64,000 nt of DNA. It comes from Macrostomum lignano. Taxonomy: Eukaryota. The notes beneath the pieces are model-generated. The model made no database searches, was not told where the DNA came from, and worked only from the letters and a program-made list of their open reading frames with translations. The translations under genes were made by a program, and so were the position numbers. The stretch is taken from assembly GCA_002269645.1 (NCBI GenBank), contig NIVC01002722.1:1-64000 (forward strand). Direction: 5' to 3'. Of this stretch, positions 1,670 to 61,075 are shown piece by piece. Position 1 is the stretch's first letter, and each line of letters begins with the position of its first letter.

Positions 1670-3030
1670 ACTAAATGTCTAGGTATTACCCTGGAGCACA
1701 GGCTGAACTGGTCACCCCACGTTCAAACAAAAGCCAAAAAGGCCCTCGTAGTCCTCGCGCAACTGCGCAGGGCTGTCGGCACCACCTGGGGGCTCACCCC
1801 CAAGCGCCTCTGGTGAATCTACACTGCAATGGTTAGGCCCGCTATCTAGTATGGCGGCCTGATCTGGGCTAGCGCCCTGCAGATAAAGACCTGTCTAGAG
1901 GCTCTCAGGAGAACGCATGGGCGCGCATGCCGCATGATCATGAGCGCCCCCCGTCTGCTCCCTAAGATGGCCACAACGCTTTCCTCAACATTCCCCGCGC
2001 TGGACATCTTCGTCCGCAGGGAAGCGGCTAAGACTACCCGCCGTCTAATTGACGCTGGCATTCGAATCCAGCCCCAAAGGGCCATGGCTAAGCGCAAGCT
2101 CCTGCCTCTCGCCGACCTCTGCCTCAAAGACTTGAGAGACAGCGAGCGGGCTCCACGTCTTATCTGACGGCGAACGCCGCACTCTCAACCTCTTTCAGCG
2201 CTACAAGGTCACCATCCCCTCAAGGGATGCTGCCACTGACCACTGGAACTTCCAGGAGGTCCATTGCTACACGGATGGATCCATCAAAGACGGCCACGCC
2301 GGCTTTGGGGTCTGCATCATCATCAACGGCCGCGTCATTTTTACGCATGCCCAGCACACTGGTAGACTCTCCACAGTCTTCGAGAACGAAGTCCTTGCCA
2401 TCAGCTCCTGCGCTGCAGAGCTGAACGCCAAGGGTACGAGAGGAGAGACTTGTCATCCACTCTGAAAGCCAAGCGGCCTTACAGGCCCTTTGCCACACCA
2501 CCACGAACTCCCGGCCGTCGCCGACTGCGTCCGGCAGCTCAACCTCCTGGCCAGTAGCAATACTGTCAGGCTGAAGTGGATCCCAGGGCACGCAGGCTTT
2601 CCGGGGACCCTCGCCAAGAGGGGCGGCTCTGGCTCTTTCTTTGGCCCTGCCCCCTTGGTCCCTATGCCTTCGACAGTCATCAATCTCGTGCCGTGGTTCC
2701 GTGTCTCTCTCGTAGGCTCAGAAACGTCCTTCTGAACCAAAATCAGAAGGATATTCGAGCCCTTGTCATGACCTTTACTGGCCATGGCTACCTCGCCAGG
2801 CACTGCTTGCTCAGCACTTTGTTTGTCACTGCCCTTTCTTTACCAGAGACCGGCTACGCTACCTCGGGCCGAACCCGTCCACTGACGAGGTCTGCCAACC
2901 CGACAGCATCCCACGGCTCATCCAGTTCTTTCGGGCGACAAGACGAGCCACTTTCTTCCCCACGGAAGATCACGCTGCAAGACGGACCGGCGGACCACCC
3001 TTGTAGAGATCTCCAAACATGGTAGCCTAC
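1670..3030 (+). mobile_element. Decayed 3' part of an RNase H-bearing non-LTR retrotransposon (I/R1/LOA-like)
   Basis: Broken frames give RT C-terminus (LGITLEHRLNWSPHV, AVGTTWGLTPK, YGGLIWASAL), RNase H motifs (CYTDGS, LKWIPGHAG) and a following ALVMTFTGHGYL segment; multiple stops and frameshifts. Confidence 0.8.
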
Positions 3031-3690: not shown

Positions 3691-3696
3691 GACGCC
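3691..3696 (+). repeat. Left target-site duplication GACGCC of the Polinton-like element
   Basis: Identical hexamer at 14439-14444 directly abutting the other TIR. Confidence 0.92.
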
Positions 3697-4029
3697 ACTA
3701 CTACGGACTGGCAGATCCGTTGATTTTGCGAAGGTCCGTCGGGCTGATGTCGGCCTCTAGCACCGCGGCAAGGTGCTCCCTCGGGGTGTACCGCCTCCCC
3801 CGGGGTGTACCTCCAGCGGGGTGGGCGTCCAGCGAGTGTACCTCCAGCGGGGTGGGCCTCCCGCGAGTGTACATCCGGCCGGCTGGGCGTCCAGCGAGTG
3901 TACCTTCAGCGCATGGGCCTCCCTCGGGGTGTACATCCGGCGGGGGGGATTCCCGCCCCTCCCACCAATGTTGTGTGCACGCGGTTAGTGTAGGAAGGAA
4001 ACCCCCGATGCTGACGCAGCCCTGTACAG
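3697..4029 (+). repeat. Left terminal inverted repeat (~333 bp), begins ACTACTAC
   Basis: Reverse complement of 14107-14438; by eye three substitutions and one G-run indel. Confidence 0.93.
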
Positions 4030-4500
4030 TGAGCATGCAGCCCTGTAGCTGGGGACAGAGAGCAGCCCCTGTAGCAGGAGGGGTAGTGCGCGGAGAGCCG
4101 CCATCCCCCTGTAGCTGGGGACAGATAACAGGCGGCCCCCTGTATCAGGAGAGGGACAGAGAGTGCGTGGAGAGCCGCCATCCCTCTGTAGCAGGGGACA
4201 GATAACAGACGGCCCCCTGTAGCAGTATGAGGTGGGTGAGGGGTACAGAGAGACACGGGGTGCTGGGACAGAGAGTGCGTGGAGGCAGTAAGGGATAGAG
4301 GAAGCCGCCCTGCATGTCGCAGCACGCGGCGTGGACAAAGAGGGAGTGTGAGTCACACACCCCGCGGAGAGAGCAGCTCAGGCAGGAGGCGCGGGACAGA
4401 GAGGCAGTGAATCACACGGAGGGACAGCGAGCTCCCCCAGGCCGGGGTGGTAGAGGGACAGACCGGCGGTGAGTGATAGAGAGCCCCCAGGCTGCAGAGG
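4030..4500 (+). repeat. Left subterminal region with imperfect ~55-60 bp repeats and patchy inverted homology to 13690-13900
   Basis: Recurrent ggagagccgccatccc..ctgtag..ggggacagataaca units; caggcaggaggcgcgggacagagaggc..gtgaatcacac is mirrored near 13745-13785. Confidence 0.7.
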
Positions 4501-4581
4501 AATTGAAAAGAAAAAACACGTAATTCAGTTGTTTCAGGTTCAGGCCATCCGGCAAACAGAGCAAAGCTCTCCAACAGTGTT

Positions 4582-5211
4582 TTATTTAGCATAAACTACG
4601 GGGTAGCGCCCCAACACATTAGCATAGTAGCGAACAGATGCGTTCTGCAAGCAATTAACAATCAGGTAGGAGTAGGGCTCCCTAGTGGCGTCTTCGTACA
4701 TTTGAACAAAACTTTTTGGGTTAGCGGGGACAAGCTGCTTTGCAATATGGGCGACTGTACTAACGTCCCGTACATTGCGGAACAATACAAGGTAGTTTGC
4801 GTTAAGGGATTGAGTGCGGTGCTCCTTGCCCTTGGCAAACAGGTTTTGCACAAGGTACCAAAGCCGGAATCCCACATGGCTGACTTTGCGAGTGAAAAAT
4901 GCGGTAAAAGCAGCGTTTTTTTCCATGGCTTGCATTTGATCATCGACAACGAGTAGAATATTCGGAGCGGGAACATAGGTTTCAGGGTTAAATGTAGACG
5001 AGCGAAAATTGACAGGGTACGGTAATTCAAACAGTTCCGGGTCTGGATAGTGCCCAAACCAATCAACGCGAACAGGCTTAGGGTCCTGAAAAAACTCGTT
5101 TCGCAGCAATTCTTTAACAAGAGTTGTTTTTCCGCTCTGGTTAACACCAGCAAAAATCGCCGAAGTATTTGGAGCAAACTTTAGAGCGTCAGGATCAATT
5201 GTTTGGTACAT
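4582..5211 (-). CDS. A32/FtsK-HerA-like genome packaging ATPase
   Basis: Walker A GVNQSGKTT, Walker B LLVVDD, downstream YLVQNLF and SLNANYLVLF typical of Polinton ATPases. First ATG at 5211 (ORF track starts at TTG 5235). Confidence 0.93.
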   Translation of the reverse strand: MYQTIDPDALKFAPNTSAIFAGVNQSGKTTLVKELLRNEFFQDPKPVRVDWFGHYPDPELFELPYPVNFRSSTFNPETYVPAPNILLVVDDQMQAMEKNAAFTAFFTRKVSHVGFRLWYLVQNLFAKGKEHRTQSLNANYLVLFRNVRDVSTVAHIAKQLVPANPKSFVQMYEDATREPYSYLIVNCLQNASVRYYANVLGRYPVVYAK

Positions 5212-5245
5212 TTTCAGGGCGAGTTGACACTCCAAATATTAAAAA

Positions 5246-5683
5246 CTATTTTATTTGTAGAACATGTTTTCGAACCATCAAATCATTTTCAAGCAGATTG
5301 GTAGAGTAACATTCCCTTAAAATCTTTTCAATCGACAATCCCTCTAAAAAGTGCTTTTCGGCCACAAAAATCACGTGCAGCCCACACGCTACACTTAGAG
5401 GGTGTTGAACAGGGTGGCGATTCATAGCAGCAGGTGAATGTACATGCTTCGAGAACCAAGCCGAGAGCAATTCCGGCACGGGTTCAATACACAGGGGGTC
5501 AAAAAATGTCACACTCTTATCATCGTGTAGGCAAATCAGTCCCCAGTGGGTGCCTGGCAGATTACCCGTGTCAAAATTAATTACGTATGCAGCAGGGTAA
5601 ACAGGTGCAGGAATTCTGTCAAGAGGGCAAACGCGCACTTCCACAGGTAGTTTTAAACGTTCCAAAATTTCCAACGTGTTCAT
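5246..5683 (-). CDS. Adenain-like (Ulp1-fold) cysteine maturation protease
   Basis: His motif GTHWGL, FFDP (Asp), oxyanion Gln plus catalytic Cys in VQHPLSVACGLH; YVINFD motif. Confidence 0.92.
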   Translation of the reverse strand: MNTLEILERLKLPVEVRVCPLDRIPAPVYPAAYVINFDTGNLPGTHWGLICLHDDKSVTFFDPLCIEPVPELLSAWFSKHVHSPAAMNRHPVQHPLSVACGLHVIFVAEKHFLEGLSIEKILRECYSTNLLENDLMVRKHVLQIK

Positions 5684-6960
5684 ACGTAGTCCAGAATGGG
5701 CTGGCGGCCTCTAGTATTTTCACCGCGTTGTCAAAGTAACCAAACACCAAAACGTTAATCCCGGCAGGTAGGGCTGCAGAAAACTTTATCTGTAGGGTCA
5801 GATTCCCTCTCTCGCGAGGCATGCTATGTCCACCCAGTTCCATGTCGGGCATTAGATTCCACGCAAATAAGCAGTAACCGGCGCGATAATCCGAATATGA
5901 CAGGTCAATGTCCAAATCGCGATTCATTTTCCCTAGGCTCTTAAACAGCATGGCGTATTCGCGAGCATAGTTTTGGGCAGCGAACCTTGGAGTGAATGGT
6001 TGACCGCACAGACTGACACCGTCCTTGTACAGGGCCACACTGTCCGCCCCAAATGGCTCGAAATTGAACGGATTATGGGTGGCCACCCCGTTATATGCGG
6101 CACTATTGACCATTCCCATAATGACAAGTTTAGGCTTCTGCTCCGGGAAAATATTATTGATTGACACGTCGCGAACTCCTACAGCGACAGAGGTGTTGTG
6201 TACAACGAGGCGCTCGATGGGGTAGACTGCATTCTGAGTTGACAGCTGTTCTTCAATCTCCAAGGCCAGTTGGGGGTTAGCCTTTACCCGACGAACGTGT
6301 AATTTTGCACTTTGAAGAACCAACTTTGCATCAACCCCTTCGGCGTGATTCTCCACAACGAATCCCGAATTTTGCAGAGTGAGCGTAACCACCATATCAG
6401 TGTAGGGCAGCAGCATACGATCGTTGGTGACAAAAAAGTCGAGACTAAGAGGGCCATACAGATGAAATGTTCGAGAACCGGCAGCCATCGCCTTGCGAGT
6501 TACAAAGCCAGGATTTCCAACCGCAGCCATTTGACCCCCAGCGTCTTTAGCGTAGCCCATCATCCGCAGTTGGTTAGACTTTGAATCAGACCCATAACTC
6601 AGCATGTACGAATGTACGCCTTGTAGGCGTGGTTGTTGTTGCTAGACTCGATATGTGTACCATTTATGGAAAGAGACACGTTTTTGAACATGGTCTCCAA
6701 GAGGTAATTGATTGGCGCCACGTTTGAATCCGCCCCAAATCGGCTCCATTAGCTCTCTTAATACAACCTTTAATCTCGAGATCAATGTCATTAAGATCGA
6801 CAAACGTCTCGCCACCCACAATTCTAAACTCGACCACACTCGCATTTTCGACGCTGGCAACCGGATGGATTTCTTCAGTAGTTGAACCTACAGCAGCAAT
6901 CTGGTGAGCACGAGGGGCAAAGAGCTCAAACTCAGACTTTGTACACAGACACTCGGACAT
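5680..6960 (-). CDS. Major capsid protein (double jelly-roll, Polinton type), split by three 1-nt deletions
   Basis: N-terminus CLCTKSEFELF..Q..IHP..VEF, restored middle VAPINYLLETMFKNVSLSING..AYKAY..LSYGSDSK, restored end ..RGRQPILDYV* whose TGA overlaps the protease ATG. Frameshifts near 6735, 6603 and 5715. Confidence 0.88.
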
Positions 6961-6988
6961 GTTTAGTAGACAGAATCGATCGGCGAAT

Positions 6989-7333
6989 CTAATTGAAGCG
7001 GGGCTTTTTATTTATAGTGCTGAAAATGTCTGAATTGAGACGCTTCGGAGCCTTTTTTCTTCTTCGTCCGCTACCCCTTTGGGTAACCGTGTCTTTAAAG
7101 GCGTCCTTGGCAGCCTGAACAGAATTGCGCAGGACAGACTCTTTCAAATTGCCTCCTTGCTCGAGGCTATCGTTAACCGTAGTTGCTAGGGCTCTAGTAC
7201 CATGACGGAGAATGTTTTTACCAAAACTCTTTAGAATTGGCAGCGCGAAGCGGGCAATGCTTCCAAACAAACCGTTGCCCCTCTGGGCGCCTGCGAAAAC
7301 AGGCAAAGCTCCACCAATCAGAATAGAAGGCAT
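6989..7333 (-). CDS. Basic core/precursor protein (pVII/pVI-like) with protease-type cleavage motifs
   Basis: LIGG/A, QRGNG/L and QRGSG/R motifs, amphipathic LFGSIARFALPILKSFGK, K/R-rich C-terminus; sits between minor and major capsid genes. Confidence 0.7.
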   Translation of the reverse strand: MPSILIGGALPVFAGAQRGNGLFGSIARFALPILKSFGKNILRHGTRALATTVNDSLEQGGNLKESVLRNSVQAAKDAFKDTVTQRGSGRRRKKAPKRLNSDIFSTINKKPRFN

Positions 7334-7376
7334 GATTAAGCACTAGGATATAGTTTACTGAGGCTGTGTTGTTTAT

Positions 7377-8514
7377 TTATAGCTTCTTTTCGTGGATGTT
7401 AACGCTCAAGACGGTCTTGCCCTTCATTACTTTTGTCATATCCCTGCCCATATCATCGTTAATTTGTACTTCAATAGTTTTGAATGGGTGCTTAACCAGT
7501 GGTAGATATGCCGGATTGACAAACTCGTAGTACTCGCGACCGCCCTGAACTTTGGGATCCATCGGTATAGCTCCCAACAGAGGAACTTTAACGTCTCCTA
7601 CAATAACAGAATCGACTATGCTCGAATAGATGTACATTGTTTGTATTCCACCGGTTAATTCCATTGATGCGTTTGCGTAGAATTCCGATATACCGAAAAA
7701 TGGGGTTGTATAATCATGCTCTGGGAAACCAAGCACGCTGGTCAAGCGCCCCAGCCCAAACATGTAATCCGTCGAGCCAATGTAATAACACCTATTCGTA
7801 ACTTCGCTGTATCTGAAAAAGTCCGTTCTAGGTGCTGGAGCCGCTATGAATCTTTGATATGTTTCCAAATTATATCGTTGAGTTCCTCCACCAATCTTTT
7901 AGGTGTACTATAGTATCCTCCCTGCATAAAAAAGATTTGATCAGACGCTGCGCTAGTAACTTGTCTTATTATTGGAGCATGGTCCATTGACTGTACAGTC
8001 GGTTCCTCAACAACTGCGGTGATGGAGGCTGCACACCCCGCGTGTAATACGAGTTCAGTAGGTAGATCCTCATTAGACTCGAAGCCGGCGACCAGTTTAA
8101 ACACCTTGGGTAGGGTATCCGGGAATTTGATGCCGACGGTGGATTTTGAAGTATTCACAATCATAAAGGCGGTTGGGGATGTTCTTAAAAAGACAATTTT
8201 CTTATTATCCCCTTCAACGTATCGGATACCGTTTAGAAAGCCGGAAATACATTCTTCAGGGGTTTTCAGACCCGCTGCGAGACAAAGGTTTGCAAACGAC
8301 GAAGCCGTCAAGAGGCCCTCCTGTTCGCGAATGGTGATCGGTATAGATTTTTTGAAAGATTCAAATTCTTTGTAAAGTAGATCCGTTCGAGGCAAACCTC
8401 ATGATTCGGAAAGTGGAGAGTGTCCGGTAAATTAATAAAATAATGAGCCGGATTATTTTCGGGATAGTGCTCGGGGCACGCATTACTAGGCAGAAAGAGA
8501 TGCATGGTAGCCAT
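7377..8514 (-). CDS. Minor capsid protein (penton, single jelly-roll), split by two 1-nt deletions
   Basis: N-terminal LFLPSNA..YPENNPAHYFINLP..EVCL and C-terminal MYIYSSIV..VGDVKVPLL..YLPL..IEVQINDDMG..GKTVL typical of Polinton minor capsid; frameshifts near 8355 and 7868. Confidence 0.85.
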
Positions 8515-8517
8515 GCA

Positions 8518-9597
8518 TTAGTTATTATTACGTTGCCGTATATTTATAACTTCATTTACAGGTACAAATGAATTAAAAATGTCGGGATAACCGCGCCAGC
8601 TAACGTAATGGTGCGCAACACCATTTATTAACACGTTTCTACGCAAAACTTTATTGATTACAAAACGCTCGGGTCGGGTAGATTTGGACAGTTCATTGTA
8701 GTAAAACCGTCCCTCAATCACTTCACCAGACAAATCAGAAATACGATAAAAATGTGGGGGTCCAGGGCAAACTTTGGATATAATGTACACCTCCTCACTA
8801 TACATGTCGTACGCCTCCTTGTCGAATGCCCTGCGAGATTTCGAAATTCTCACAAAATCCCCCTTTTTATATACGGGTTCGTCTTTTTGTTGATGCGGGT
8901 AGAGCTTTTCCCACACACGCTTCTGATTGTGGAACCCTACACTTGACGGTTTCATCTCAATAGAAGAATGCGTCGTGTTGTTGTAATTACCTACCAAATT
9001 GGGTAAGTAGTCAACCCAACGCCACGTGTTGTTGTGCTCAAAGTAGCGAGCCAGACGCTTTCGAAGAGTTCTAATCAGCCTCTCGGCCATGTTTGCCTTG
9101 TACACAGAGTTGGTGCTGTACATTTTAACATTATTGTCTTTTAGTATGCGACGCATTCGCTGATTATAAAACTCGGTACCCCGATCCACGTGAAGGTAAA
9201 GGGGGCGGGCAGGGAAATCATTCGCCAACATCGACTCAAACGCTGCGGGGGTATCACTCTTTAGTTTAATTGCCCTACAAAAAGCCTGCTTACTAAGCAC
9301 ATCAATAACAACTAGTATATATTTATGTCCGTCATTCCAACGTTTGTATCGCGACATGTCCATCAAATCGGCTTGTAGAGTTTCCATGAATCCTCCCGAC
9401 ATTACTTTTCCCGTTTTAAATCTCCTGTTGACTCTCCGGTGACGGGTGTAACTCGGTTGGGTTTCTAGCCATTCCCTGGTTTGGCGTCTTGTCAGGTTTG
9501 GCGCCAGACGTTTGGCCTCCTGATAGACACGGGCAGCATTTGAAAAAGCGGCGGCTCCTTGTTCGTAAACTCGACGAAGAGCGGTTAGAGCCCTCAT
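8518..9597 (-). CDS. Retroviral-like DDE integrase with C-terminal chromodomain-like region
   Basis: QADLMD..YILVVIDVLSK, HVDRGTEF, MAERLIRTL (D,D,E) and C-terminal KVLRR..YVSWRGYPDIFNSFVP; intact 359-aa frame from ATG 9597. Confidence 0.95.
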   Translation of the reverse strand: MRALTALRRVYEQGAAAFSNAARVYQEAKRLAPNLTRRQTREWLETQPSYTRHRRVNRRFKTGKVMSGGFMETLQADLMDMSRYKRWNDGHKYILVVIDVLSKQAFCRAIKLKSDTPAAFESMLANDFPARPLYLHVDRGTEFYNQRMRRILKDNNVKMYSTNSVYKANMAERLIRTLRKRLARYFEHNNTWRWVDYLPNLVGNYNNTTHSSIEMKPSSVGFHNQKRVWEKLYPHQQKDEPVYKKGDFVRISKSRRAFDKEAYDMYSEEVYIISKVCPGPPHFYRISDLSGEVIEGRFYYNELSKSTRPERFVINKVLRRNVLINGVAHHYVSWRGYPDIFNSFVPVNEVINIRQRNNN

Positions 9598-9730
9598 TGA
9601 CAACAAGTGTGGATGCGCAGCATGAATAGTTGCACGTAATGTCGGCTGGGGAGTTGTCTACACAAAGCTTTGACGCGGCGGCTGCTGAGCCCATGACCGC
9701 CGGGCGCGCGGTTATGTTTGGACTAGGGTT

Positions 9731-10357
9731 CTATTTATAAAGAGTCACGTATTTTTTCTTTTTCTCGGGTGGTCTTAGTTGGTAATCGTGATATTTACCC
9801 ACCCCGGTACCTTGATCCACAAGTTTGGGCATAGCATTTACACCTTTGTTGCGCGTGGTCGTTAAATCGCGGGTGTCTGTCGCAATTGTGTGCTCATATT
9901 CATCGCGGTAATCGTCGGTACCAACCAAATGGTCAACCTTCTTTTCCTCCACAGGGAGCTGTTTCCGACCGAGCATAGACATTGGTATACGGGCCTTGTC
10001 TAGTAGAGCCCAGAAAGCGGTCGAATATTTCGGGTGATTATTAGTGTTGGTGGTGACGGCTTGTAGAAGATCAAAAACGTTGCTACCACCCCAAGTTTCA
10101 CCATCAAAAACGACTTCCCACGATTGGTTGTAATTTAGGCTAGGGTGCTTTTCTGTTAGTATATTCCATATACGTTGTTGCCTATCAGAAAATAGCTGCT
10201 TTGTCGTCTTTTGGGGTTTTACTTTAGCCAATTGGGTCTGTAGCTTTGCATTGTACTCTACAAGTTTTTCGTACTCCGATTTTGGGGCAATTTCTCGCGG
10301 AGTACCCTGCCTAAGCTGATTGAATTCCTCCTCGGGGACCACAACGTACTTGTCCAT
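9731..10357 (-). CDS. Conserved uncharacterised Polinton protein
   Basis: MDKYVVVP N-terminus and W..VFDGETWGGSNVFDLL motif resemble the ORF usually found just upstream of Polinton integrases (recalled pattern, not searched). Confidence 0.6.
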   Translation of the reverse strand: MDKYVVVPEEEFNQLRQGTPREIAPKSEYEKLVEYNAKLQTQLAKVKPQKTTKQLFSDRQQRIWNILTEKHPSLNYNQSWEVVFDGETWGGSNVFDLLQAVTTNTNNHPKYSTAFWALLDKARIPMSMLGRKQLPVEEKKVDHLVGTDDYRDEYEHTIATDTRDLTTTRNKGVNAMPKLVDQGTGVGKYHDYQLRPPEKKKKYVTLYK

Positions 10358-10359
10358 TT

Positions 10360-10749
10360 TCAACGTCGTTGTCCTAGCAGACCACCAAACAGTCCAGTGA
10401 TTAACGGTGCAGCAATCTTGGCGAGAATTGGTAGGAATCCTCCAACTTGAGGGTCCGATAGTATCATATTCTTCTTCCTATTTATAGACAGTTTTTTGTC
10501 GGCCATGTCATGCAGGGCTTCTCTATAACGTTTCAACCTTGCAAACTGTCTAGGGGATAGATCGATATTGCCCTTGAGTACATTGTGACTTAACTCGCAC
10601 AGACACTGCATCAACTCATTGTCGGCTCCCCTAATAATGGCCCTCCTTCGATGTGGTCGCGCGTCACCGAGCTCCTCTAGCTCGCGACGGCAAGAACAAA
10701 GACGAGAAATTCCGTTTGTCATTATTAAGGTGGTAAGCATTGCGTGCAT
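10360..10749 (-). CDS. Small virion precursor protein (pX/pVI-like) ending in an amphipathic peptide
   Basis: ELMQCLCELSHNVLKGNIDL..QFARLKRYR core, QVGG/F cleavage-like site followed by FLPILAKIAAPLITGLFGGLL. Confidence 0.72.
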   Translation of the reverse strand: MHAMLTTLIMTNGISRLCSCRRELEELGDARPHRRRAIIRGADNELMQCLCELSHNVLKGNIDLSPRQFARLKRYREALHDMADKKLSINRKKNMILSDPQVGGFLPILAKIAAPLITGLFGGLLGQRR

Positions 10750-10787
10750 ACATGTGCATATTTTGTTTATTTATAAGCAAAGCATAA

Positions 10788-11270
10788 TTAGAGTTGCAGA
10801 ATAGCAGTCACGTGGTCGTACATTTTACACAGTTCGTCATAGTTTCGTATTCCTAGGAACACTAACCGACCATTCTTTCCGCACAGCAGGCACTTGGCCT
10901 TGCGGAATGGGGACTTTATTACAAGCCCATTGAATACCTCACTCTCCCACTCAACCCAGCGCGAGCTCGAGTTGGCAAGGCGAAAAAAGTTTGGCCTAAC
11001 ATTAACTTCTGCACGATAAGTACCGGTAGTGATAACAACAGAGTTTGGTTTACATTGAGAAAAAAGACGCAGAACATCGTTGGTTGATTGGCAACCAAAA
11101 ACAATGGCAGATAATGAACGTTTGAAAAAGTTTATTGTACACTTTCCGATCCTCAGGTTGTACAATGCCCGGGGTCTATGAAACGTTCTAGCGCGCGCCC
11201 AGTCCAAGTTCGGTAGGCTGTTCCACCTTGCGCAAAACACCCTGTTTACGCACACGACGTTCTGCAAGCG
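10788..11270 (-). CDS. Divergent TATA-binding-protein-like domain (no own ATG)
   Basis: Two TBP-like repeats: LQNVVC (cf. LQNIVS), IVFGCQSTNDV (cf. VCTGAKSEEQS), WESEVFNGLVIK (cf. YEPELFPGLIYR), NGRLVFLGIRNYDELCKMYDHVTAIL (cf. [26 protein letters not shown]). Confidence 0.7.
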   Translation of the reverse strand, partial: RLQNVVCVNRVFCARWNSLPNLDWARARTFHRPRALYNLRIGKCTINFFKRSLSAIVFGCQSTNDVLRLFSQCKPNSVVITTGTYRAEVNVRPNFFRLANSSSRWVEWESEVFNGLVIKSPFRKAKCLLCGKNGRLVFLGIRNYDELCKMYDHVTAILQL

Positions 11271-11868
11271 GTTTTTTCGGTTGCTTTTGTTTCCGCTCAG
11301 CTCCACCAGCTCCGCGCTTGCGTCCTACCTTGATTTTTAACGGTGGAATCCAGTAGCAGCGGTCAAACGCCTGCTTGGGAGCTTCTATGAATTGCAGTTG
11401 TTGAATTTTCGGCACCGCGGTTAGAACCGAGTCGTGAATCACCGCCGTGTCTAGGGCGAACAGTACTCTATAGTAGCCCGTCTTGTTCTTGTAGTCGGTG
11501 CACAACTTGCCGCTCTTGTCGTACATTTTAAAGTCTTGAGCCAATCCGAATGCAGCGCTGTCGCAGTCAAAAGTGGGGTTGTACCCCAATAGCGCCATTC
11601 CTTGGATAGAGAGCTGGTGACACACGGAATTGAACGCTTCTGGTATGCAGCTCTCCAAGTGCTTTTGGGAAAGAATGATGAATTCGCGGCGTTCATTGTC
11701 GGTTCTCACACCCTTGACAATCAGTACGGGCGTCGCATTGGCAAGATAGAGAGGGCCCTGTTCGTCGTACTCAATGTCGTACGTCTCGGTTCCGTTGTAG
11801 CTTGGACCTCTCGACTTGAGAGAGAATAGGTCGATCCTAACACTATTGTAGTCTTGAACGGTATCCAT
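11188..11868 (-). CDS. Hypothetical protein, beta-rich, possibly OB-fold ssDNA-binding; K/R-rich tail overlaps the TBP-like frame
   Basis: Intact 226-aa ORF with ATG and upstream TATATAAG; FKMYDKSGK..YYRVLFAL..VPKIQQLQFIE loosely resembles T7 gp2.5-type SSBs (weak). Confidence 0.5.
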   Translation of the reverse strand: MDTVQDYNSVRIDLFSLKSRGPSYNGTETYDIEYDEQGPLYLANATPVLIVKGVRTDNERREFIILSQKHLESCIPEAFNSVCHQLSIQGMALLGYNPTFDCDSAAFGLAQDFKMYDKSGKLCTDYKNKTGYYRVLFALDTAVIHDSVLTAVPKIQQLQFIEAPKQAFDRCYWIPPLKIKVGRKRGAGGAERKQKQPKKPLAERRVRKQGVLRKVEQPTELGLGAR

Positions 11869-11960
11869 GTTGCTGCTGCTGTTGCTGAGAGTGGGTCTCG
11901 CACCCTGAGTGCCTCCTTATATACCCTTGGGGCGGAGGGTAGGGTGGCTGGGCGTTTTTG

Positions 11961-12476
11961 TTATAGTCCTTCTTTAACGACATTTTCCGGTGTTGGAAAT
12001 CCGGAAAAAATAAACCTTTTGTTTCGATCTTCTGGTCGAGGGGTTTGAGGCGTGTCGTTAATGCAGCTGCAGTGAGGGTTGATAGTCAACTTCGCTAGCA
12101 CTGGTCTACTGTGTTTAGGCCGCCATATCCTTTGGTGTTCCGTCCACGAGGGAGCAAGCGGCTGGTGATTCCGGTACCGTATTTTTTCACGATGATCCTC
12201 TTGTAATATCGGGGTAATTATCTGCTCTATTCTTTGTAGATTGGCTTTGAAATGCATCTTATCTCTAAAGTTGTAGTCAATTCGGGCATCTGTATATTCT
12301 TGGGTGCTGTAAGGCCCCTGCCCAATTTCGTCTACCTCTACATTAAAGGTGACTAATCGCTCGGGAATTGGTTTGCCGTGACAAATGCATAACCAGTCTG
12401 TGGACTTTTTCAGGGTCTCGTACTCTGCCCTTTCTTTGCTCGATAAAAGCGGGTAGTCTCGGGAAATCCAGCTCAT
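11961..12476 (-). CDS. Hypothetical protein (CICH and HCSC Cys/His clusters)
   Basis: 171-aa ORF tiled in the element, ATG overlaps upstream stop (ATGA). No recognisable family. Confidence 0.55.
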   Translation of the reverse strand: MSWISRDYPLLSSKERAEYETLKKSTDWLCICHGKPIPERLVTFNVEVDEIGQGPYSTQEYTDARIDYNFRDKMHFKANLQRIEQIITPILQEDHREKIRYRNHQPLAPSWTEHQRIWRPKHSRPVLAKLTINPHCSCINDTPQTPRPEDRNKRFIFSGFPTPENVVKEGL

Positions 12477-12826
12477 TCCTCCGACTCGTCAGATTCGTCG
12501 AGAAAGAAATAGTGGAAGAAATTGTCGACTCTATTCTTTTCAACTGCACAAAGTATTTTGTCTGACAGGTGAAATTCGCAGTCTCCTTTTACGTACAGGC
12601 GCTTCCCGTCGATAACTTTGATAGATGCGCCGCCTCCGAGATCGTAATCTGTGCAGCTAGTGCCCAGAAATTTCATTCGATGCCATTGTGCTCGACTAAA
12701 CACGGCTCCTGGGCAGCTACAGTTTTGGCAGTGGATGCGGAAACGCGGCTTGTTTGGGTCCCAATACCCCACTTCCAGCACTGCGTTGTCAACGTGGGTG
12801 TACACTATTTCAGATTGCCAGTACAT
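12473..12826 (-). CDS. Possible PC4/Sub1-like nucleic-acid-binding protein with acidic tail
   Basis: PGAVFSRAQWHRMK resembles PC4 KGISLNPEQWSQLK; a second YDLGGG beta-repeat; DESDESEE C-terminus. First ATG at 12826, 32 nt after TATAAATA. Confidence 0.45.
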   Translation of the reverse strand: MYWQSEIVYTHVDNAVLEVGYWDPNKPRFRIHCQNCSCPGAVFSRAQWHRMKFLGTSCTDYDLGGGASIKVIDGKRLYVKGDCEFHLSDKILCAVEKNRVDNFFHYFFLDESDESEE

Positions 12827-12860
12827 TTCGATATCGTTGAGAAATACCAATTTTATTTAT

Positions 12861-13634
12861 TTATAGGTCCCCGTCTGAACAGATTTCCAACCATTCCCTC
12901 CACTGTAGAACGGTTCTCTCAATTGATAAAAGTAAATACGCCGCTAGGAGCCCCGGGTTGCCGCTGCGCGCTTCGTAAAGACAGTTGAGATATGTGTCTC
13001 TATTTGCAAATGCTGCTGGTTCTGGGAGAATCCGGTTGAACAACTTTGATAATAACAGCCTAGCAGTTCTACCATTGCCGTCGCTAAAGGGGTGTATGGT
13101 GAGAAACTTTTCTAGGAAATATGCTCCTGTCACTACTGCGTCTTGCAGGAATTGTGGTTCTTTTATGTCTCTAGTTAATTTTACCAGCTGCCGTTCGATA
13201 TTTTCTGGGGTGCTGTAATACATACTCGCGCCTGCAGGTTTAGCGTGTTTAATTCTATACGATCCCGCATTTGGGAGCAGTCCTCTGCACACGCGTGTGT
13301 GAACTTGCCTAACCAACTCTGTGTCAATTATACCCCTCGTGTCATTGAGGTGTTTTGCTGCACTCCATAAATTAGTTGTGACCATACAGGACCCGGTTTT
13401 TAGCGCTTCTTCTGCTTCCTCCAAAGTCAACGCCACCTCTCTCTCCTCAATGTTTACTTCTGTTATGAATGCCAGCCTGGCTAGATACGTGAATTCTAAG
13501 CGCTCCTTTGTGGACAATCCCGCGATTCTTTTCCTAGTGTCTGATAACAATCTTTCAATGAGGGGTATTCTGGCGCACACGCTCTCGTTGCTGAAATAGG
13601 GGTTATCAGTTATGCCCGCCTCCATGTTCTCCAT
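12861..13634 (-). CDS. Fic-domain protein (AMP transferase)
   Basis: Canonical HPFSDGNGRTAR motif, upstream GSYR flap region and an N-terminal EVNIEE helix resembling the inhibitory (S/T)xxxE(G/N) motif. Confidence 0.92.
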   Translation of the reverse strand: MENMEAGITDNPYFSNESVCARIPLIERLLSDTRKRIAGLSTKERLEFTYLARLAFITEVNIEEREVALTLEEAEEALKTGSCMVTTNLWSAAKHLNDTRGIIDTELVRQVHTRVCRGLLPNAGSYRIKHAKPAGASMYYSTPENIERQLVKLTRDIKEPQFLQDAVVTGAYFLEKFLTIHPFSDGNGRTARLLLSKLFNRILPEPAAFANRDTYLNCLYEARSGNPGLLAAYLLLSIERTVLQWREWLEICSDGDL

Positions 13635-14106
13635 ACAGAGGGTTTTGTACACTGCTTCTATTTATGGGTTTGAAATTACACGTTGCCCGTCCGTCCCTCT
13701 CCCCCGGGCCTGGGGAAGCTCACTGTACGGCTCTCTCCTGGGGGTGTGATTCACCGCCTCTCTGTCCCGCGCCTCCTGCCTGGGCTGCTCTCTGTCCCTC
13801 CGCACCCACTGCCTCTCTGTCCCCTGCAACTGGGGCGGGGCTCTCTATCCTCTGTACGGCTCTCCCCGTGGGAGTGTGTGAGTCACACTGCCTCTCTGTT
13901 CCTGCATGCGCCTCTCTATCCGGCTCCTGCAGCGGGGCGTTCTGTTCACATCTCTCTTTCCGCCAACCCTCTGGCTGTACACGCTCACCGTACAGGGCTG
14001 CGTCAGCATCGGGGTTAAAACTTCTCACTCCCTATGCTTCGACAGTATAACAGCAGCCTAGTGACTGGCTCTCTGTCCACCCACCCCTCTGTCCGTACAT
14101 GCCTCG

Positions 14107-14438
14107 CTGTACAGGGCTGCGTCAGCATCGGGGGTTTCCTTCCTACACTAACCGCGTGCACACAACATTGGTGGGAGGGGCGGGAATCCCCCCGCCGGAT
14201 GTACACCCCGAGGGAGGCCCATGCGCTGAAGGTACACTCGCTGGACGCCCAGCCGGCTGGATGTACACTCGCGGGAGGCCCACCCCGCTGGAGGTACACT
14301 CGCTGGACGCCCACCCCGCTGGAGGTACACCCCGGGGGAGGCGGTACATCCCGAGGGAGCACCTTGCCGCGGTGCTAGAGGCCGACATCAGCCCGACGGA
14401 CCTTCGCAAAATCAACGGATCTGCCAGTCCTTAGTAGT
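14107..14438 (-). repeat. Right terminal inverted repeat (~332 bp), ends TAGTAGT
   Basis: Reverse complement of 3697-4029. Confidence 0.93.
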
Positions 14439-14444
14439 GACGCC
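14439..14444 (+). repeat. Right target-site duplication GACGCC
   Basis: Identical to 3691-3696. Confidence 0.92.
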
Positions 14445-15899: not shown

Positions 15900-16570
15900 C
15901 CGGGAGGGGCTCTGCCAATTTATTTAAAAAATATGCGAGATATTGGAGTATATGAATATATACGTTCAGCTTAGGATCACGTTCCGCACAGAGAAGGTGT
16001 CCCAGTATGTCTGCAACTTGAAGTCCCGTGTCCCTCGGCCTCTCAATGCAGGTGTCGTTTATAAATTTCATTGCTCTGGCGACCAGAGTATTTCGTACAT
16101 CGGAAAAACTAAGCGACACTTGTACACTAGGGTCAAGGAGCACTGGACCAAAAGATCTGCTGTACAGGAGCACCTTCTCACATGCAACTCATGCTGTAAC
16201 AACAAACCGATTGATTTATTTAAGATTATCGATTCTTGCCGCCATGAGCACACTTTGAATATCTTAGAGGCTATGTACATCAAAGATCAGAACCCGAGCC
16301 TAAACTGCCAGCTAGCTATGGGGGTGCCAGCCGCCAACTCAGCGTCTTTTAGCTTGGAGTGTACGCTACTGCACCGTGTGTTAACTTGTTTGTTTCGCTT
16401 GAAAACTACTGGTACGTACAATAATTTATATTGTGTATTCAACTTATCACAGGTATATTTATTCAACTGTTTATTAGAATTTTCAATTTCACTACTGCCC
16501 TGACGATGACCTACAAGGGTCGAAATGCATTGGCAATTGAATTAAAGTAAAAAAACGAGTTTATGTTTGT
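15900..16570 (+). mobile_element. 5'-truncated Penelope-like retroelement: GIY-YIG endonuclease plus pseudo-LTR tail
   Basis: GVVYKFHC..YIGKTKRHL..RVKEH..LEAMYIK..PSLN in ORF 15943-16503, followed by a hammerhead motif. Confidence 0.85.
16496..16535 (+). ncRNA. Minimal type I hammerhead ribozyme
   Basis: Stem I TGCC/GGCA, core CTGACGA(T), stem II GACC/GGTC, GAAA, palindromic short stem III AATGCATT, cleavage triplet ATT. Confidence 0.72.
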
Positions 16571-17149: not shown

Positions 17150-20045
17150 TGAAGAGGACAAGGAATAAAGAGGGAGGGAGAGCCGCTGGCTAAGCACGCG
17201 CTCGGAAAAGTTGGGGCGTATAACTAGCTAGCCTAAGGCGGGTTTTGGGCCGCTCGGGCCGCCTCGTTGATGCCAGCTAACCTGTTAGCTTGCCTCCTTT
17301 TTAGGCTGTCCCAGAGAAGGTTCAGCACTGGAGGGCGGTTGCGGGCAGCTCTAGGGAGCTCCGGCTCAATATGGAAATCATGGTGCCTAGCCGCCTTCAC
17401 CTTGGAGAGCCAGCCTACGCCCAGGGCCTGAATCCTATCGGCCAACATGGGCATGGCCCGCCAGCTCATGCAGATAAGCCGCTTGGGTATAACTCATGGC
17501 GGATCCTAGGAGCTCGATTTTGTATTTTTTGGAGCTTGTTGAGGTTGCTTGGCGCAATGATATTTAGAACGGTTTGTCGTGAAAGGTGATCGCCTGACTC
17601 TTGTCAGCATTGATCTTGATCCCCTGCCCCCCACACCAGTTCCAGACTTCGTTGAGGTAGGGTTGCAGGAGCGTATTAAGGCCGGCAAAAGAGTCCGCCG
17701 AGGCCCAGATGGCCATGTCGTAGGCGAATTGGCTACGCTTGACATTTGAATGTTGAGGCCGTGGCATAGTGCTGATAAAAAGCAGGTACAGGAAGGGGCT
17801 TAAAATGCCACCCTGGGGAATGTCCGGCTGCAACTCGTACGGCTGGCTGAGCGCTCCATTTACCTTTACCTGCATTAACCTGTCTGCTAGATAGTCAGAG
17901 CAGATCCTGATGAGGGCGTCCTCGTGAATCGACCTCGTCTCGACCTCGTGAATCCTGTAACGCAGGTAATCGTACCAGACCGAGTCGAACGCGGCTTGGA
18001 CATCAAGGAAAATGGCTAAAAGTCTTTTGAGTTTGGCTTTGCCCACCTGGACGTCTTGGACGAGGCGGACAAGATTGTCATAGGTGGAGTGAACCTTCCT
18101 ATATGCGCACTGATCCGCACCGAGGATACTTTTGCCCTCGAGATGTTTCATCAGCCTCCTCATCAATAGCTTCTCGAAGACCTTGCTGAGGCAGGAGGTA
18201 AGGCTGATGGGCCGGTAGGATCCCGGGGATTCAGGCGGTTTATCTGGCTTGGGAATCATTGTCACCACATGGTCTGGAGGCCACGCGACGATGATCAGCT
18301 TCTCCATGAGGCAGTTCTGAAACTCCTCCCAGTTGGCTTTAGCAAAGTTCCGGGCTTGGATTGACCTGGTTGGATAAGCACAGTAGGGCGTCATGTCGAG
18401 TCACCACAGAGCCAATCATGAAGTTGCTGACCAACCCTGTTGTTGTTGTTGCGAATTTCACCCCAAGGAAGTTATGCCTGGCGTTGAGGTCTCCCATGAT
18501 AAGAGAATATTTGGCCAAAGAAAACCGAGTTAAAATTCCAACATCAAGGTTGTCCGGCGACGGAGACCGATATACCAGAGCAAGTTAGAAGGCAGGGCAA
18601 GTGCCGTCAAGAGGGGTGACCGTGCAGGTAAGAACCTCGTGATTGATGTTGTCGTACTGTTGGACATCAGCTACCTTAACCCGCTGGGGTGTGTACGAGG
18701 AGGAGTCCACACTTTGCACTAGGAAAGTCAAACCGCACTGCAGCATAGCCCGGGAATGAGCAGATTTGGGTATTTTTCAGGATGGTCTCAGAAAACAATG
18801 CAATATCCAACTTTTGACCTGAGACCCAGAGCCTGAGTTCTTTTAGTTTCGGTATTCCGCCTGCAGTTTAGGTGGGCGATCCTAAGGCCTAAGGCAGTGG
18901 AGTTGGAGCTATCTTACTCGCTATCACCGAAGGTACTAATTACTTATTATTCTAGGTCTGGCCACCCGCCTCACGCCGATTGGCGCCGAGCAGCTGACCA
19001 AGGCCTTGGTGACCTTCCGACCCGCCTTCGAGTACGGGCCAGAACCCTACTTACTACGTCCTGTACCGTTTGACGGGTACCCTCGGTAGCAGGCGGCCGT
19101 TCGACTGGGCTAAGCCAGAGGGTTGTAAGCGCCTCGACGAGTGCTTGAAATAGGAGGGGGAGAAGCCCACTCACCAGCCCTTGGAGGTCAACATTAGCGT
19201 TAGCGCTTTGCGGCGTGGAATTGTTTGGCGGAGCAGCCGATTGAGTTGGCGCTTGCGTCTGAGTCTCAGTCGAGTCGCGCGCAGGGCGCTTCCGGCTCGG
19301 GAGGCTTGGGCCGATGAGCCAGGACGAGTCGTCGTCGCCGTCTGTTGCCGTCGTCGCCGTCTGTTGCCGTCGTCGCCCGCGCTGCGGTCTCGCCTGAACC
19401 AGACGCCGTTGCCGCTGCTGGCTTCGGTGCGGGGGCGGATGGCGCCGCTGTTGCCGCTGCTGTCGGAGTCACTGCTGTTGCCACCATAGGTGGTGGAGGT
19501 GGAGCGGATAATGAGCCGCGGACGAGGCTCGGGTCTGGTTCTCGGGAGACGTCGGGTTACTGGTCCTCCGCCGAATTGAGGCTCCTGCAGGGGCCCACGC
19601 AGGAAGAGCTGGTGGTCCTGCGGAGTGGCTGGGAAGGCCAGATACCCGGTCTCGTATTGCGTTTTTTTGGTGAGTGTGGCCCGCGCCGACCCTTGAAAGT
19701 TGGCGGCGAGCCATTGGAGAAAATCTATTTGACTGCTTTTGTTGGCAGTTTTGAAGAAAATTGGCACCACGTTAGTTCTGTTGCCGCTATTGCTATTGTA
19801 TGGCCGTGAGCCCGCACCGATATTTCGGCCGCCGTGCTGGACTTGGGGGCCGTCTGGGGCCGCAAGGCTGGGCGCGCCGGCCGCCCCGCAGCCGCCTGGC
19901 TGTCCGGTCGCTGCAGTCGTCCGAGAGCCCGGCGCAGCCGGGCCAGAGCCCGCCCTGCTACTGCCAGGCCAATTACCGACGTGTGCTGCTGCTGATCGTG
20001 TTGGGCCTCCGCGCCCAGGAGTGCCCAGGAGAGAAGACTCGAAGA
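17150..20045 (-). mobile_element. Degenerate, internally deleted Jockey/I-like LINE (ORF1 remnant, AP endonuclease remnant, RT)
   Basis: RT ORF 17564-18394: IPKPDK..SYRPISLTSCLSKVFEK, IFLDVQAAFDSVW, PQGGILSP, FAYD; endonuclease remnant IMGDLNARH near 18480; ORF1-like frame 19171-19770. Confidence 0.85.
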
Positions 20046-38400: not shown

Positions 38401-38519
38401 GGCCTCGATGCCGCAGCGCTGGCTGATGGCGTGTCAGCATGACCTGTGTGAGGGCAGTTCCTAGTTCTGCTAGTGCCGCTGCCGCTGTTGTTGCTGTTGC
38501 TCTCCGCGCTCCACATCAT
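29448..38519 (-). CDS. SLC17 / vesicular glutamate transporter-like MFS protein; exons 38519-37442, 34927-34763, 30784-30677, 29743-29448
   Basis: KRYLIALL..IGMR, GYLV..VGGYL, RLMQGLAEG, FWGPEGERS, VPWKEIFKSRQVYAI, GGCLADFL, GFSGLAVAGYAVNVIDLAPNFSG; phase-1 junctions consistent. Upstream exon cannot be excluded. Confidence 0.85.
29875..30170 (+). repeat. ~20-bp minisatellite (tttgtgtctttggacaatgg)
   Basis: Visible degenerate tandem units in the last intron of the SLC17-like gene. Confidence 0.85.
30985..31800 (+). repeat. ~20-21-bp minisatellite (caacttcaagaca core)
   Basis: About 40 degenerate units. Confidence 0.88.
34007..34572. mobile_element. MITE with ~110-bp terminal inverted repeats
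   Basis: aggacgctacactcgaaatctatgg..cttttcgccgaaaaatacactacagagataggaggtttt mirrored at 34455-34560; related fragments near 39570 and 54490. Confidence 0.75.
35435..35726 (-). mobile_element. tRNA-derived SINE copy
   Basis: Reverse complement of the 44078 copy including A/B boxes and tail. Confidence 0.85.
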
Positions 38520-39269
38520 TCGATTGTCCGACCTGTCTGTCTCTGATAGTCCATGCAGACTCACGATGGGTCTACAGAACTGGGTAGGCAAGCAGAATGA
38601 TTTTAAGAACGCTGTTTCGTAGACAGAAGAAAAGCACCTTAAAGGGGAAGCGATGCTTCCATCCGACGGCTGCTCCAACCTCACACTTTCCTGCCCGAAA
38701 GTTTGAGGATTTGACTGAGTTAAGCTCAGCCAATAGTGAGAGCCTAGGCTTTAGTCTCTTGCGCAGCAGACTTCACCTAGGCCTTGTGGACACTGGATTG
38801 CTGTCGCCCTCAACCTCCTCTCTCGCAGCCTTTCTCCTTGCTTCTAGCAAAGACACACACAAACACGCGCTCACACACACGCACACGCACAAGCTCGCAT
38901 GCAAACTCGCCGTCTGGTCGCTTATCGAAGCAGAGAGTCACCAGAACTGGCGTTGCCACCCAGCGGAGCGTGACAATGAGCTTCCGCTGGGGCTCTCCTC
39001 CTCTCCCAGTGCCACCTAGGCTCTGCGTCCGCTCCCCTCTCCCCTTCGCTGTCTCCTTCTCTCTCTGCCTCTCGTTCCTCCGCCAACATAAATTACGCTT
39101 GTACAAATGCGACGCAAACGAGGGGCAAAGCTTGAGTAGTACTCGTATTAGTAGTATGCGTCCCCATAGCGTCCTGGTTTTCAAGGATAAATTTCGTGTT
39201 CCGATGCAGTCTTAATTTACGTAAAGCGATTTTCAATGAATTCGTGTTGTATATACCAGCAGCTCAATA

Positions 39270-54844: not shown

Positions 54845-61075
<6,231 letters not shown>

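What the first reader, a model, noticed from the sequence alone, without database searches (positions are those of the whole stretch)
3697..14438. Complete capsid-encoding Polinton-like virus with no DNA polymerase
Seen: near-identical TIRs, a perfect 6-bp TSD, and intact integrase, ATPase and protease genes plus both capsid genes. ORFs tile 4582-13634 with only short gaps, so the ~3-4 kb pPolB gene cannot fit, and no helicase or primase motif is visible. Established: pPolB is a defining core gene of Polintons/Mavericks/adintoviruses. Inference: this is either a satellite that borrows pPolB from a helper Polinton, or a lineage that uses host replication and carries a transcription-factor/Fic block instead. 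The clean, promoter-equipped junctions argue against a single random deletion.
Basis: partly seen in the sequence, partly recalled or inferred. Interest (0 to 1): 0.86.

Follow-up and report, generated by a model that had tools for sequence, protein, structure and literature searches.

The report
Polymerase-less Polinton with broken capsid genes

Summary
The element is real: 10,742 bp, 341-bp TIRs (98.2% identical), perfect GACGCC target-site duplication, and no polymerase, helicase or primase match in 110 six-frame segments. The largest gap between genes is 133 bp. It is not a complete virus as assembled: the major capsid gene has three frame breaks against intact 427-aa relatives, and the putative minor capsid gene lies in three frames. 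New here: ORF 11868-11188 folds as a T7 gp2.5/ASFV CP312R-type ssDNA-binding protein (Z 11.6), so a replication accessory is kept. The adjacent TBP-like frame has no usable ATG and is probably expressed as a spliced SSB-TBP fusion through a 67-nt candidate intron, whose flanking residues are kept in 6 of 6 relatives. A database protein reveals a second, ~98% identical copy. Best reading: a non-autonomous Polinton derivative copied in trans by a helper pPolB (0.45). A post-insertion deletion or assembly collapse (0.25) is not excluded, because the relatives' gene neighbourhoods could not be seen. Mobile polB-less Polintons are already reported in Pieris. New variant of a known kind.

The parts
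3691..3696 (+). Target-site duplication GACGCC (left)
3697..4037 (+). Left TIR, 341 bp; starts with a 3-bp tandem (ACT ACT A); holds a 31-bp tandem array at 3793-3956
4038..4581 (.). Sub-terminal GC-rich degenerate repeats, partly homologous to the right sub-terminal zone; poly(A) signal of the last gene at 4586 on the minus strand
   Evidence: (82% over 111 bp between the two zones)
4582..5211 (-). P-loop ATPase, 209 aa (packaging ATPase by position and recalled family)
   Evidence: Walker A/B motifs; weak AAA_14 match E 0.015
5246..5683 (-). Cysteine protease, 145 aa (adenain-like, by recalled motifs)
   Evidence: H/D/C-type motifs; no Pfam or PDB match
5683..6960 (-). Major capsid protein gene, broken by three frameshifts (near 6736, 6603, 5715)
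   Evidence: tblastn of P0001-P0003 (427 aa, ~80% identity); 18 homologues; homologue P0005 weakly matches Pfam DJR-like_dom E 0.027
6989..7333 (-). Small basic ORF, 114 aa, with protease-site-like G-x-G motifs (core-protein-like; label recalled)
7377..8514 (-). Putative minor capsid (penton) gene in three reading frames (8514-8308, 8398-7844, 7898-7377); label from recalled terminal motifs and position
   Evidence: no library match
8518..9597 (-). Retroviral-type (rve) integrase, 359 aa, intact DDE
   Evidence: Pfam rve E 2e-09; alignment; tree
9731..10357 (-). ORF208, unassigned
   Evidence: no credible family match
10360..10749 (-). ORF129, basic, with a C-terminal GGF/GGL motif (protein-X-like; label recalled)
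10788..11324 (-). TBP-like reading frame, 178 codons, no Met before residue 168; overlaps the SSB tail by 137 bp
   Evidence: Pfam TBP E 1.6e-4; NCBIfam TBP E 1.7e-4; 14 of 14 PDB sequence hits are TBP entries or a TBP-aligned microsporidian protein, best E 0.004
11262..11328 (-). Candidate 67-nt GT-AG intron that would join SSB residues 1-180 in phase to 157 residues of the TBP-like frame
   Evidence: prediction; no transcript seen
11188..11868 (-). Single-stranded-DNA-binding protein of the T7 gp2.5 / Enc34 / ASFV CP312R fold (residues 1-170) with a basic C-terminal tail, 226 aa
   Evidence: AF2 pLDDT 79.3, pTM 0.75; Foldseek and VIA
11961..12476 (-). ORF171, unassigned; start overlaps the stop of ORF117; candidate site of a deletion junction
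   Evidence: no credible match
12473..12826 (-). ORF117, unassigned (PC4-like by eye only; not supported by any search)
   Evidence: present in the second copy P0080
12861..13634 (-). Fic/DOC-family protein, 257 aa, intact HPFxxGNGRxxR motif
   Evidence: Pfam Fic E 2.6e-14
14098..14438 (-). Right TIR, 341 bp
14439..14444 (+). Target-site duplication GACGCC (right)

Best explanation
A non-autonomous derivative of a Polinton/Maverick. It lost pPolB before this insertion and is copied in trans by the protein-primed polymerase of an autonomous relative in the same host that recognises the shared termini. Its own rve integrase inserts it, giving the 6-bp duplication. Its own gp2.5-type SSB would coat the strand displaced during synthesis. 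Its genes are transcribed by host RNA polymerase II from TATAAATA-type boxes, probably helped by a TBP-like domain expressed as a spliced SSB-TBP fusion. This copy is no longer virion-competent as assembled, because both capsid genes are frameshifted. Shown: ends, TSD, absence of polymerase, integrase motifs, SSB fold, capsid breaks, promoter boxes, a second copy. Inferred: helper replication, loss before insertion, splicing, and what the TBP domain does.
For: No replicase in any frame and no room for one. Both TIRs and sub-terminal zones are whole and abut a promoter-like box or a poly(A) signal; 8 of 12 gene starts have TATAWAWR within 160 bp, 2 more have a one-mismatch box, and the other 2 overlap the upstream stop. 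SSB fold: VIA Z 11.6 (rmsd 4.0, 157 aligned) to ASFV CP312R, Z 9.9 to T7 gp2.5, Z 9.0 to Enc34 SSB; the fifth row is Z 4.9; the same proteins top Foldseek. Second copy: P0080 carries a TIR-derived peptide, the distal half of ORF117 and the SSB (169 of 173 residues identical) in the same order, followed by sequence with no match in this window. Termini keep a short tandem unit, as protein-primed slide-back initiation requires (recalled). Precedent: polB-less, TIR-flanked polintons next to polB-bearing close relatives, inferred to remain mobile (10.1101/2025.02.07.637071, passages).
Against: No helper was seen: the window holds none and no genome was available. P0080 is a spliced-looking gene model that skips the very intervals where pPolB could lie, so it does not show that the second copy lacks pPolB. 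Integrase relative P0023 and SSB relative P0076 are both listed on 2 contigs with longest 8,848 bp, while no capsid hit shares that length. If these are one contig, it must extend at least ~3.4 kb upstream of the SSB, more than the 2,570 bp this element has. That fits a pPolB-bearing relative, or host flank. Five frame breaks and 6 TIR differences show decay or sequence error, so a local deletion is plausible.
Confidence: 0.45

Rival explanations
1. A one-off loss: an ordinary pPolB-bearing Polinton inserted here and lost the polymerase afterwards by deletion (for example within or next to ORF171, or beside the Fic gene), or the assembly collapsed that segment. The copy is dead.
For: Capsid genes are frameshifted. 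TIRs differ at 6 of 342 columns. ORF171 has no match and a low-information C-terminal part. The 8,848-bp contig hint suggests longer relatives. 10.7 kb is below the 13-25 kb range given in 10.1101/2023.08.22.554363 (passage).
Against: No polymerase remnant in 110 segments. Every gene keeps its promoter-like box or a coupled start, so a random deletion would have had to fall between genes. No N in the window.
Confidence: 0.25
2. An old, stable replicase-less lineage: the whole clade (integrases at 68-72%, capsids at 80%, SSBs at 35-57%) lacks pPolB and lives as a satellite of Polintons or of another DNA virus, supplying its own SSB-TBP protein.
For: The integrases form a long-branched, fully supported 7-member clade (100/100). 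SSB homologues were found in only a small set of proteins (4; 4 credible of 7 listed), which fits one lineage. Gene junctions are clean. PLV group VC40 lacks detectable replication genes (10.64898/2026.06.19.733378, passage).
Against: No relative's gene neighbourhood was seen. The 8,848-bp contig leaves room for pPolB. The animal elements surveyed in PMC8502044 (section 3.1) and PMC11131425 (passage) nearly all carry PolB.
Confidence: 0.2
3. No helper is needed: the element moves by integrase-driven cut-and-paste, or is copied by host polymerases from a panhandle formed by the TIRs, with SSB assisting; capsid genes are then dispensable and decay.
For: All five frame breaks fall in the two capsid genes, 28% of the coding length (P 0.0017 if all other ORFs are intact), while the integrase is intact.
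Against: The test is post hoc, and P is only 0.065 using ORFs verified against homologues. The main capsid fragment shows no excess of private substitutions (15 versus 10-16 in three relatives), which points to recent damage or indel error rather than long relaxed selection. One TIR arm has no unusual self-structure (z 0.38). No initiator nuclease, helicase or primase was found.
Confidence: 0.1

Closest known systems
Polintons/Mavericks/adintoviruses (class Polintoviricetes)
   Same: TIRs, 6-bp TSD, rve integrase, ATPase, cysteine protease, major and putative minor capsid genes.
   Different: No pPolB; 10.7 kb; capsid genes frameshifted; carries a gp2.5-type SSB overlapped with a TBP-like frame, and a Fic gene.
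polB-lacking polintons of Pieris mannii and a Gypsy-carrying insect group (bioRxiv 10.1101/2025.02.07.637071, passages seen)
   Same: TIR-flanked, structural genes kept, polB absent, inferred to remain mobile.
   Different: Those carry a LINE or LTR element as cargo and have identified polB-bearing close relatives; here no transposon cargo lies inside and no parent was seen.
PLVs and Group 2 Maverick-Polintons with swapped replicases; PLV cluster VC40 with no detectable replication gene (10.64898/2026.06.19.733378, passages; PMC11161782, passages)
   Same: Capsid module uncoupled from pPolB.
   Different: Those usually substitute a helicase, primase or PolA fusion and often a tyrosine recombinase; none is found here.
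T7 gp2.5 / Enc34 / ASFV CP312R and NCLDV SSBs
   Same: Predicted fold of residues 1-170 (Z 9.0-11.6; 117 BFVD matches at E <= 0.001, the 50 listed being mostly uncharacterised large-DNA-virus proteins).
   Different: 5-13% sequence identity to the solved SSBs; basic tail rather than the acidic tail of gp2.5 (PMC2965674, abstract start); probable spliced fusion to a TBP-like domain.
Viral TBP mimics of beta/gammaherpesviruses (KSHV ORF24; PMC12529657, PMC7498053, search listing and abstract start only)
   Same: A divergent virus-encoded TBP-like domain alongside a uniform AT-rich promoter box: a functional analogy.
   Different: No homology tested; no other pre-initiation subunits recognised here; the box is canonical TATA-like.

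Membership tests
Polinton/Maverick (Polintoviricetes) | [quoted passage not shown] | tested here: not met
   0 of 110 six-frame segments match a polymerase family; largest gap 133 bp
Polinton/Maverick (Polintoviricetes) | Retroviral-like rve integrase with DDE | tested here: met
Polinton/Maverick (Polintoviricetes) | TIR of 100-1500 bp and TSD of 5-8 bp | tested here: met
   341 bp and 6 bp; ranges from 10.1101/2023.08.22.554363 passage
Polinton/Maverick (Polintoviricetes) | Length 13-25 kb | tested here: not met
   10,742 bp
Polinton/Maverick (Polintoviricetes) | Double jelly-roll major capsid protein | tested here: inconclusive
   1 of 4 homologues scanned weakly matches Pfam DJR-like_dom (E 0.027); no PDB sequence match; not folded; label rests on recalled motifs and gene order
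Polinton/Maverick (Polintoviricetes) | Intact capsid genes (virion-competent copy) | tested here: not met
   three breaks in the major capsid gene; minor capsid region in three frames
Polinton/Maverick (Polintoviricetes) | Packaging ATPase and adenain-like protease | tested here: inconclusive
   catalytic motifs present but no specific family match
Adintovirus (Starrett et al.) | PolB with N-terminal OTU domain | tested here: not met
   definition
Adintovirus (Starrett et al.) | Integrase with C-terminal chromodomain | tested here: inconclusive
   no chromodomain match for the window protein; PF00385 is listed for 11 of 57 homologues, none among the six closest
PLV (Aquintoviricetes and related) | Alternative replicase (SF1/SF3 helicase, primase, PolA) and often tyrosine recombinase | tested here: not met
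T7 gp2.5/NCLDV-type SSB | OB-fold with gp2.5-type elaborations | tested here: met
T7 gp2.5/NCLDV-type SSB | Binds single-stranded DNA | not testable with these tools
   needs a binding assay
TBP family | TBP repeat profile above the curated cut-off | tested here: inconclusive
   21.9 bits versus cut-off 22.9, E 1.6e-4, only the second repeat matched; consistent weak hits
Non-autonomous mobile family | Several copies of the same deleted layout with different TSDs | not testable with these tools
   no host genome available; P0080 shows a second copy but not its length

The most novel reading that the evidence does not exclude
This is the first seen member of an old animal Polinton lineage that has given up its replicase altogether and lives as a satellite of other Polintons, encoding through a conserved alternative splice both a free SSB and an SSB-TBP fusion that couples replicating single-stranded DNA to transcription of its TATAAATA-driven capsid genes.
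Probability: 0.15. Interest if true: 0.82.

Novelty: new variant of a known kind. Interest (0 to 1): 0.5.

Why it matters
No Polinton replication cycle has been shown directly (own knowledge). A polymerase-less family that keeps its termini, integrase and SSB would show which cis signals and accessory proteins a helper pPolB needs, and would be missed by pipelines that require pPolB to call an element (the nematode survey filtered on five query proteins). Separately from the polymerase question, the conserved SSB/TBP overlap points to a virus-encoded transcription factor in animal Polintons. In my literature searches TBP appeared only as a figure label for MELD viruses.

Tried and rejected
Single-sequence AF2 of ORF226 gave pLDDT 39 and was not used; the 8-row model was, although only 2 of its 5 models were confident (79.3, 78.4 versus 37-46). 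ESM Atlas: no usable hit for ORF226 or ORF117. PDB sequence searches: nothing for the capsid, its profile or the protease; only chance-level hits for ORF117, the ORF226 profile and ORF171. PHROGs and NCBIfam added only Fic and TBP. Phage collection: no match for ORF171 or the capsid. GTDB genome scan with the capsid alignment: 1 of 62 candidates confirmed, a 1,072-bp contig with no neighbourhood. Rfam: 0 matches. TIR arm folding: z 0.38. Two tests for dual-coding constraint on the SSB tail did not support it: second-position conservation 0.39 in the tail versus 0.48 in the core; +1-frame compatibility 54 of 88 in the tail versus 349 of 688 in the core, with the +2 control rising similarly, 50 of 88. 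P0084-P0086 (3 of 7 rows) were dropped as tandem-repeat artefacts; P0082 is a fragment and was left out of the splice-site count. A first spacer count for P0078 (151 aa) was a pattern error, corrected to 20. ORF117 as PC4-like and ORF171 as a pPolB N-terminal remnant are impressions from recall that no call supported. Cluster membership and contig counts for the window's proteins could not be obtained. Viral and metagenome contig collections stayed unchecked. My guess of a flatworm host (from base composition) was not verified; a literature search on it found 1 unrelated paper and no hit in the adintovirus supplement.
Full report
Observation. The element runs from 3697 to 14438 (10,742 bp) and is flanked by GACGCC on both sides; its TIRs align over 341 bp at 98.2% with 4 mismatches and 2 gaps. 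They begin with a 3-bp tandem and hold a 31-bp array. Related degenerate repeats continue to about 780 bp from each end. No other part of the window matches the interior. The flanks hold decayed retroelement-like frames and intron-containing animal-type genes; the host was not identified by any search.

Gene content. All genes lie on the minus strand, from the right TIR: Fic, ORF117, ORF171, ORF226, a TBP-like frame, ORF129, ORF208, integrase, putative minor capsid, ORF114, major capsid, protease, ATPase. The largest gap is 133 bp. Pfam on 110 stop-free segments of 45 aa or more in all six frames of 4000-14100 returned rve, Fic, TBP and a weak DUF5646, and no polymerase, helicase or primase. 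The absence of pPolB is therefore confirmed at this sensitivity. The integrase keeps D77/D138/E172; Walker A/B, protease and Fic motifs are present. TATAWAWR occurs 10 times on the coding strand and 0 times on the other, against 1.3 expected; 8 of 12 gene starts have one within 160 bp, 2 have a one-mismatch box, and 2 overlap the upstream stop.

The capsid genes are broken. The main capsid frame found 18 homologues among 1,894 candidates, three of them 427 aa long and about 80% identical. Against these the gene falls in four pieces with breaks near 6736, 6603 and 5715. The putative minor capsid region spans three frames; I had no homologue to confirm this. All five breaks lie in the capsid genes (P 0.0017 if every other ORF is intact, 0.065 counting only the two ORFs verified against homologues; post hoc). 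The main capsid fragment has no excess of private substitutions (15 versus 10-16), so recent damage or indel errors in the assembly are as plausible as long relaxed selection. The capsid labels rest partly on recalled motifs and gene order: the only library support is a weak Pfam double-jelly-roll match for 1 of 4 homologues scanned (E 0.027), and PDB sequence searches were empty.

ORF226 is a viral-type SSB. It has 4 homologues at 52-55% among 580 candidates; the profile search listed 7, of which 4 are credible. An AF2 model of residues 1-180 from 8 rows reached pLDDT 79.3 and pTM 0.75. It matches ASFV CP312R (Z 11.6, rmsd 4.0, 157 aligned), T7 gp2.5 (Z 9.9) and Enc34 SSB (Z 9.0), then a DUF2815 phage protein (Z 7.8), then Z 4.9. 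Foldseek ranks the same proteins first and gives 117 viral matches at E <= 0.001. That the SSB serves strand-displacement synthesis is inference from adenovirus, PRD1 and phi29 (recalled).

The TBP-like frame. 11324-10788 matches TBP weakly but consistently (Pfam E 1.6e-4, just under the cut-off; NCBIfam E 1.7e-4; best PDB hit E 0.004). It has no Met until residue 168 and overlaps the SSB tail. A 67-nt GT-AG interval (11328-11262) would join SSB residue 180 in phase to 157 TBP-frame residues; its acceptor is the only YYNCAG site in the open overlap, about 0.06 expected in phase by chance. In 6 of 6 full-length relatives examined, the residues that spell the donor (IKV) and the acceptor ([AS]E) are kept, while the spacer varies from 19 to 60 aa and is 22% identical against 57% on either side. 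Against: the read-through frame is also open in all of them, so splicing would have to be alternative; two dual-coding tests were not supportive; the gene model P0080 does not use this junction; and 5 of 6 relatives could place a start codon early in the tail, so a separate overlapping gene remains possible. I put the spliced fusion at about 0.6. No transcript was seen.

Other copies and relatives. P0080 reads as a spliced model of a sister copy: a TIR-derived peptide, the distal half of ORF117, then the SSB (169 of 173 residues identical, with a tandem duplication), then sequence absent from this window. The family has at least two copies with the same left-arm order, but the model skips the intervals where pPolB might lie. 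The integrase groups with six relatives at 68-72% (100/100; tree of 28 of the 58 sequences available). P0023 (integrase) and P0076 (SSB) share the listing '2 contigs, longest 8,848 bp', and no capsid hit does. If they share a contig, it has more DNA upstream of the SSB than this element, which leaves room for pPolB in that relative. This is a hint only. Neighbourhoods of relatives could not be read: the GTDB scan gave one 1,072-bp contig and viral and metagenome contigs stayed unchecked.

Mechanism. Most likely (0.45) a non-autonomous derivative: polymerase lost before this insertion, replication by a helper pPolB at the shared termini, own SSB and integrase, host Pol II transcription from TATAAATA boxes perhaps aided by the TBP-like domain. 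Rivals: loss at this locus or assembly collapse (0.25), an old replicase-less lineage (0.2), helper-free movement (0.1).

Comparison with what is known. It works like a Polinton but fails the pPolB, length and intact-capsid tests, so I file it as a derivative, not a full member. Passages of bioRxiv 10.1101/2025.02.07.637071 report TIR-flanked polintons lacking polB in Pieris mannii and a second insect group, inferred to remain active. Passages of 10.64898/2026.06.19.733378 and 10.64898/2026.10.13.758929 describe frequent replicase turnover and a PLV cluster with no detectable replication gene. PMC8502044 (section 3.1 and passages; its one held supplement searched without hits), its preprint, PMC11131425, PMC11161782, 10.1101/2024.03.25.586562, 10.1101/2023.08.22.554363, PMC11296320, PMC3014272, 10.1101/2022.07.28.501842 and PMC6431247 were read as passages only. 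Nine searches showed no description of an SSB-TBP overlap or fusion in Polintons in the listings and passages I saw; TBP and DUF2738 appear only as figure labels for MELD viruses and PLVs. Figures and bioRxiv supplements, which I could not see, may hold such elements, and subscription papers were not searched.

Verdict. Real, partly as described; a new variant of a known kind. Interest 0.5: the missing polymerase has precedent and this copy is damaged, but the retained SSB and the conserved SSB/TBP arrangement are worth following.

Noticed in passing
window 11262-11328 (-), with P0076-P0079, P0081, P0083: Candidate conserved intron joining the SSB to a TBP-like domain; the read-through frame is also open in all relatives examined.
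   Followed up: yes
P0080 (database protein): Spliced-looking gene model of a ~98% identical sister copy, with a tandem duplication inside the SSB and a different downstream sequence.
   Followed up: partly
P0023 and P0076: Integrase and SSB relatives list the same contig count and longest length (8,848 bp), hinting at one contig longer on the SSB side than this element.
   Followed up: partly
window 3697-3703 and 14432-14438: Termini read 5'-ACTACTA...TAGTAGT-3'; the Polinton termini I recall start with AG, so this may be a distinct terminal class (recall only).
   Followed up: no
window 15928-16503 (+): Open frame with a GIY-YIG-like motif typical of Penelope-like retroelements (label recalled; no Pfam match).
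   Followed up: no
window 2200-2600 (+) and 17564-18400 (-): Fragments resembling RNase H and reverse transcriptase of non-LTR retrotransposons (by eye).
   Followed up: no
window 37410-38750 (-): Host 446-codon frame of an SLC17-like anion transporter (NCBIfam TIGR00894 E 1.5e-44), largely intron-free.
   Followed up: no
window 54845-61127 (-): Exons resembling an espin/forked-like ankyrin-repeat actin-bundling gene (by eye), interrupted by minisatellites.
   Followed up: no
window 41203-41686 and 47394-47993: Two arrays of a related 15-bp minisatellite in opposite orientation about 6 kb apart; many other 8-26 bp minisatellites occur across 24-59 kb.
   Followed up: no
L001 1-1072: A short contig in a bacterial MAG encodes a 31%-identical piece of this capsid family, probably a mis-binned eukaryotic virus fragment.
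   Followed up: no
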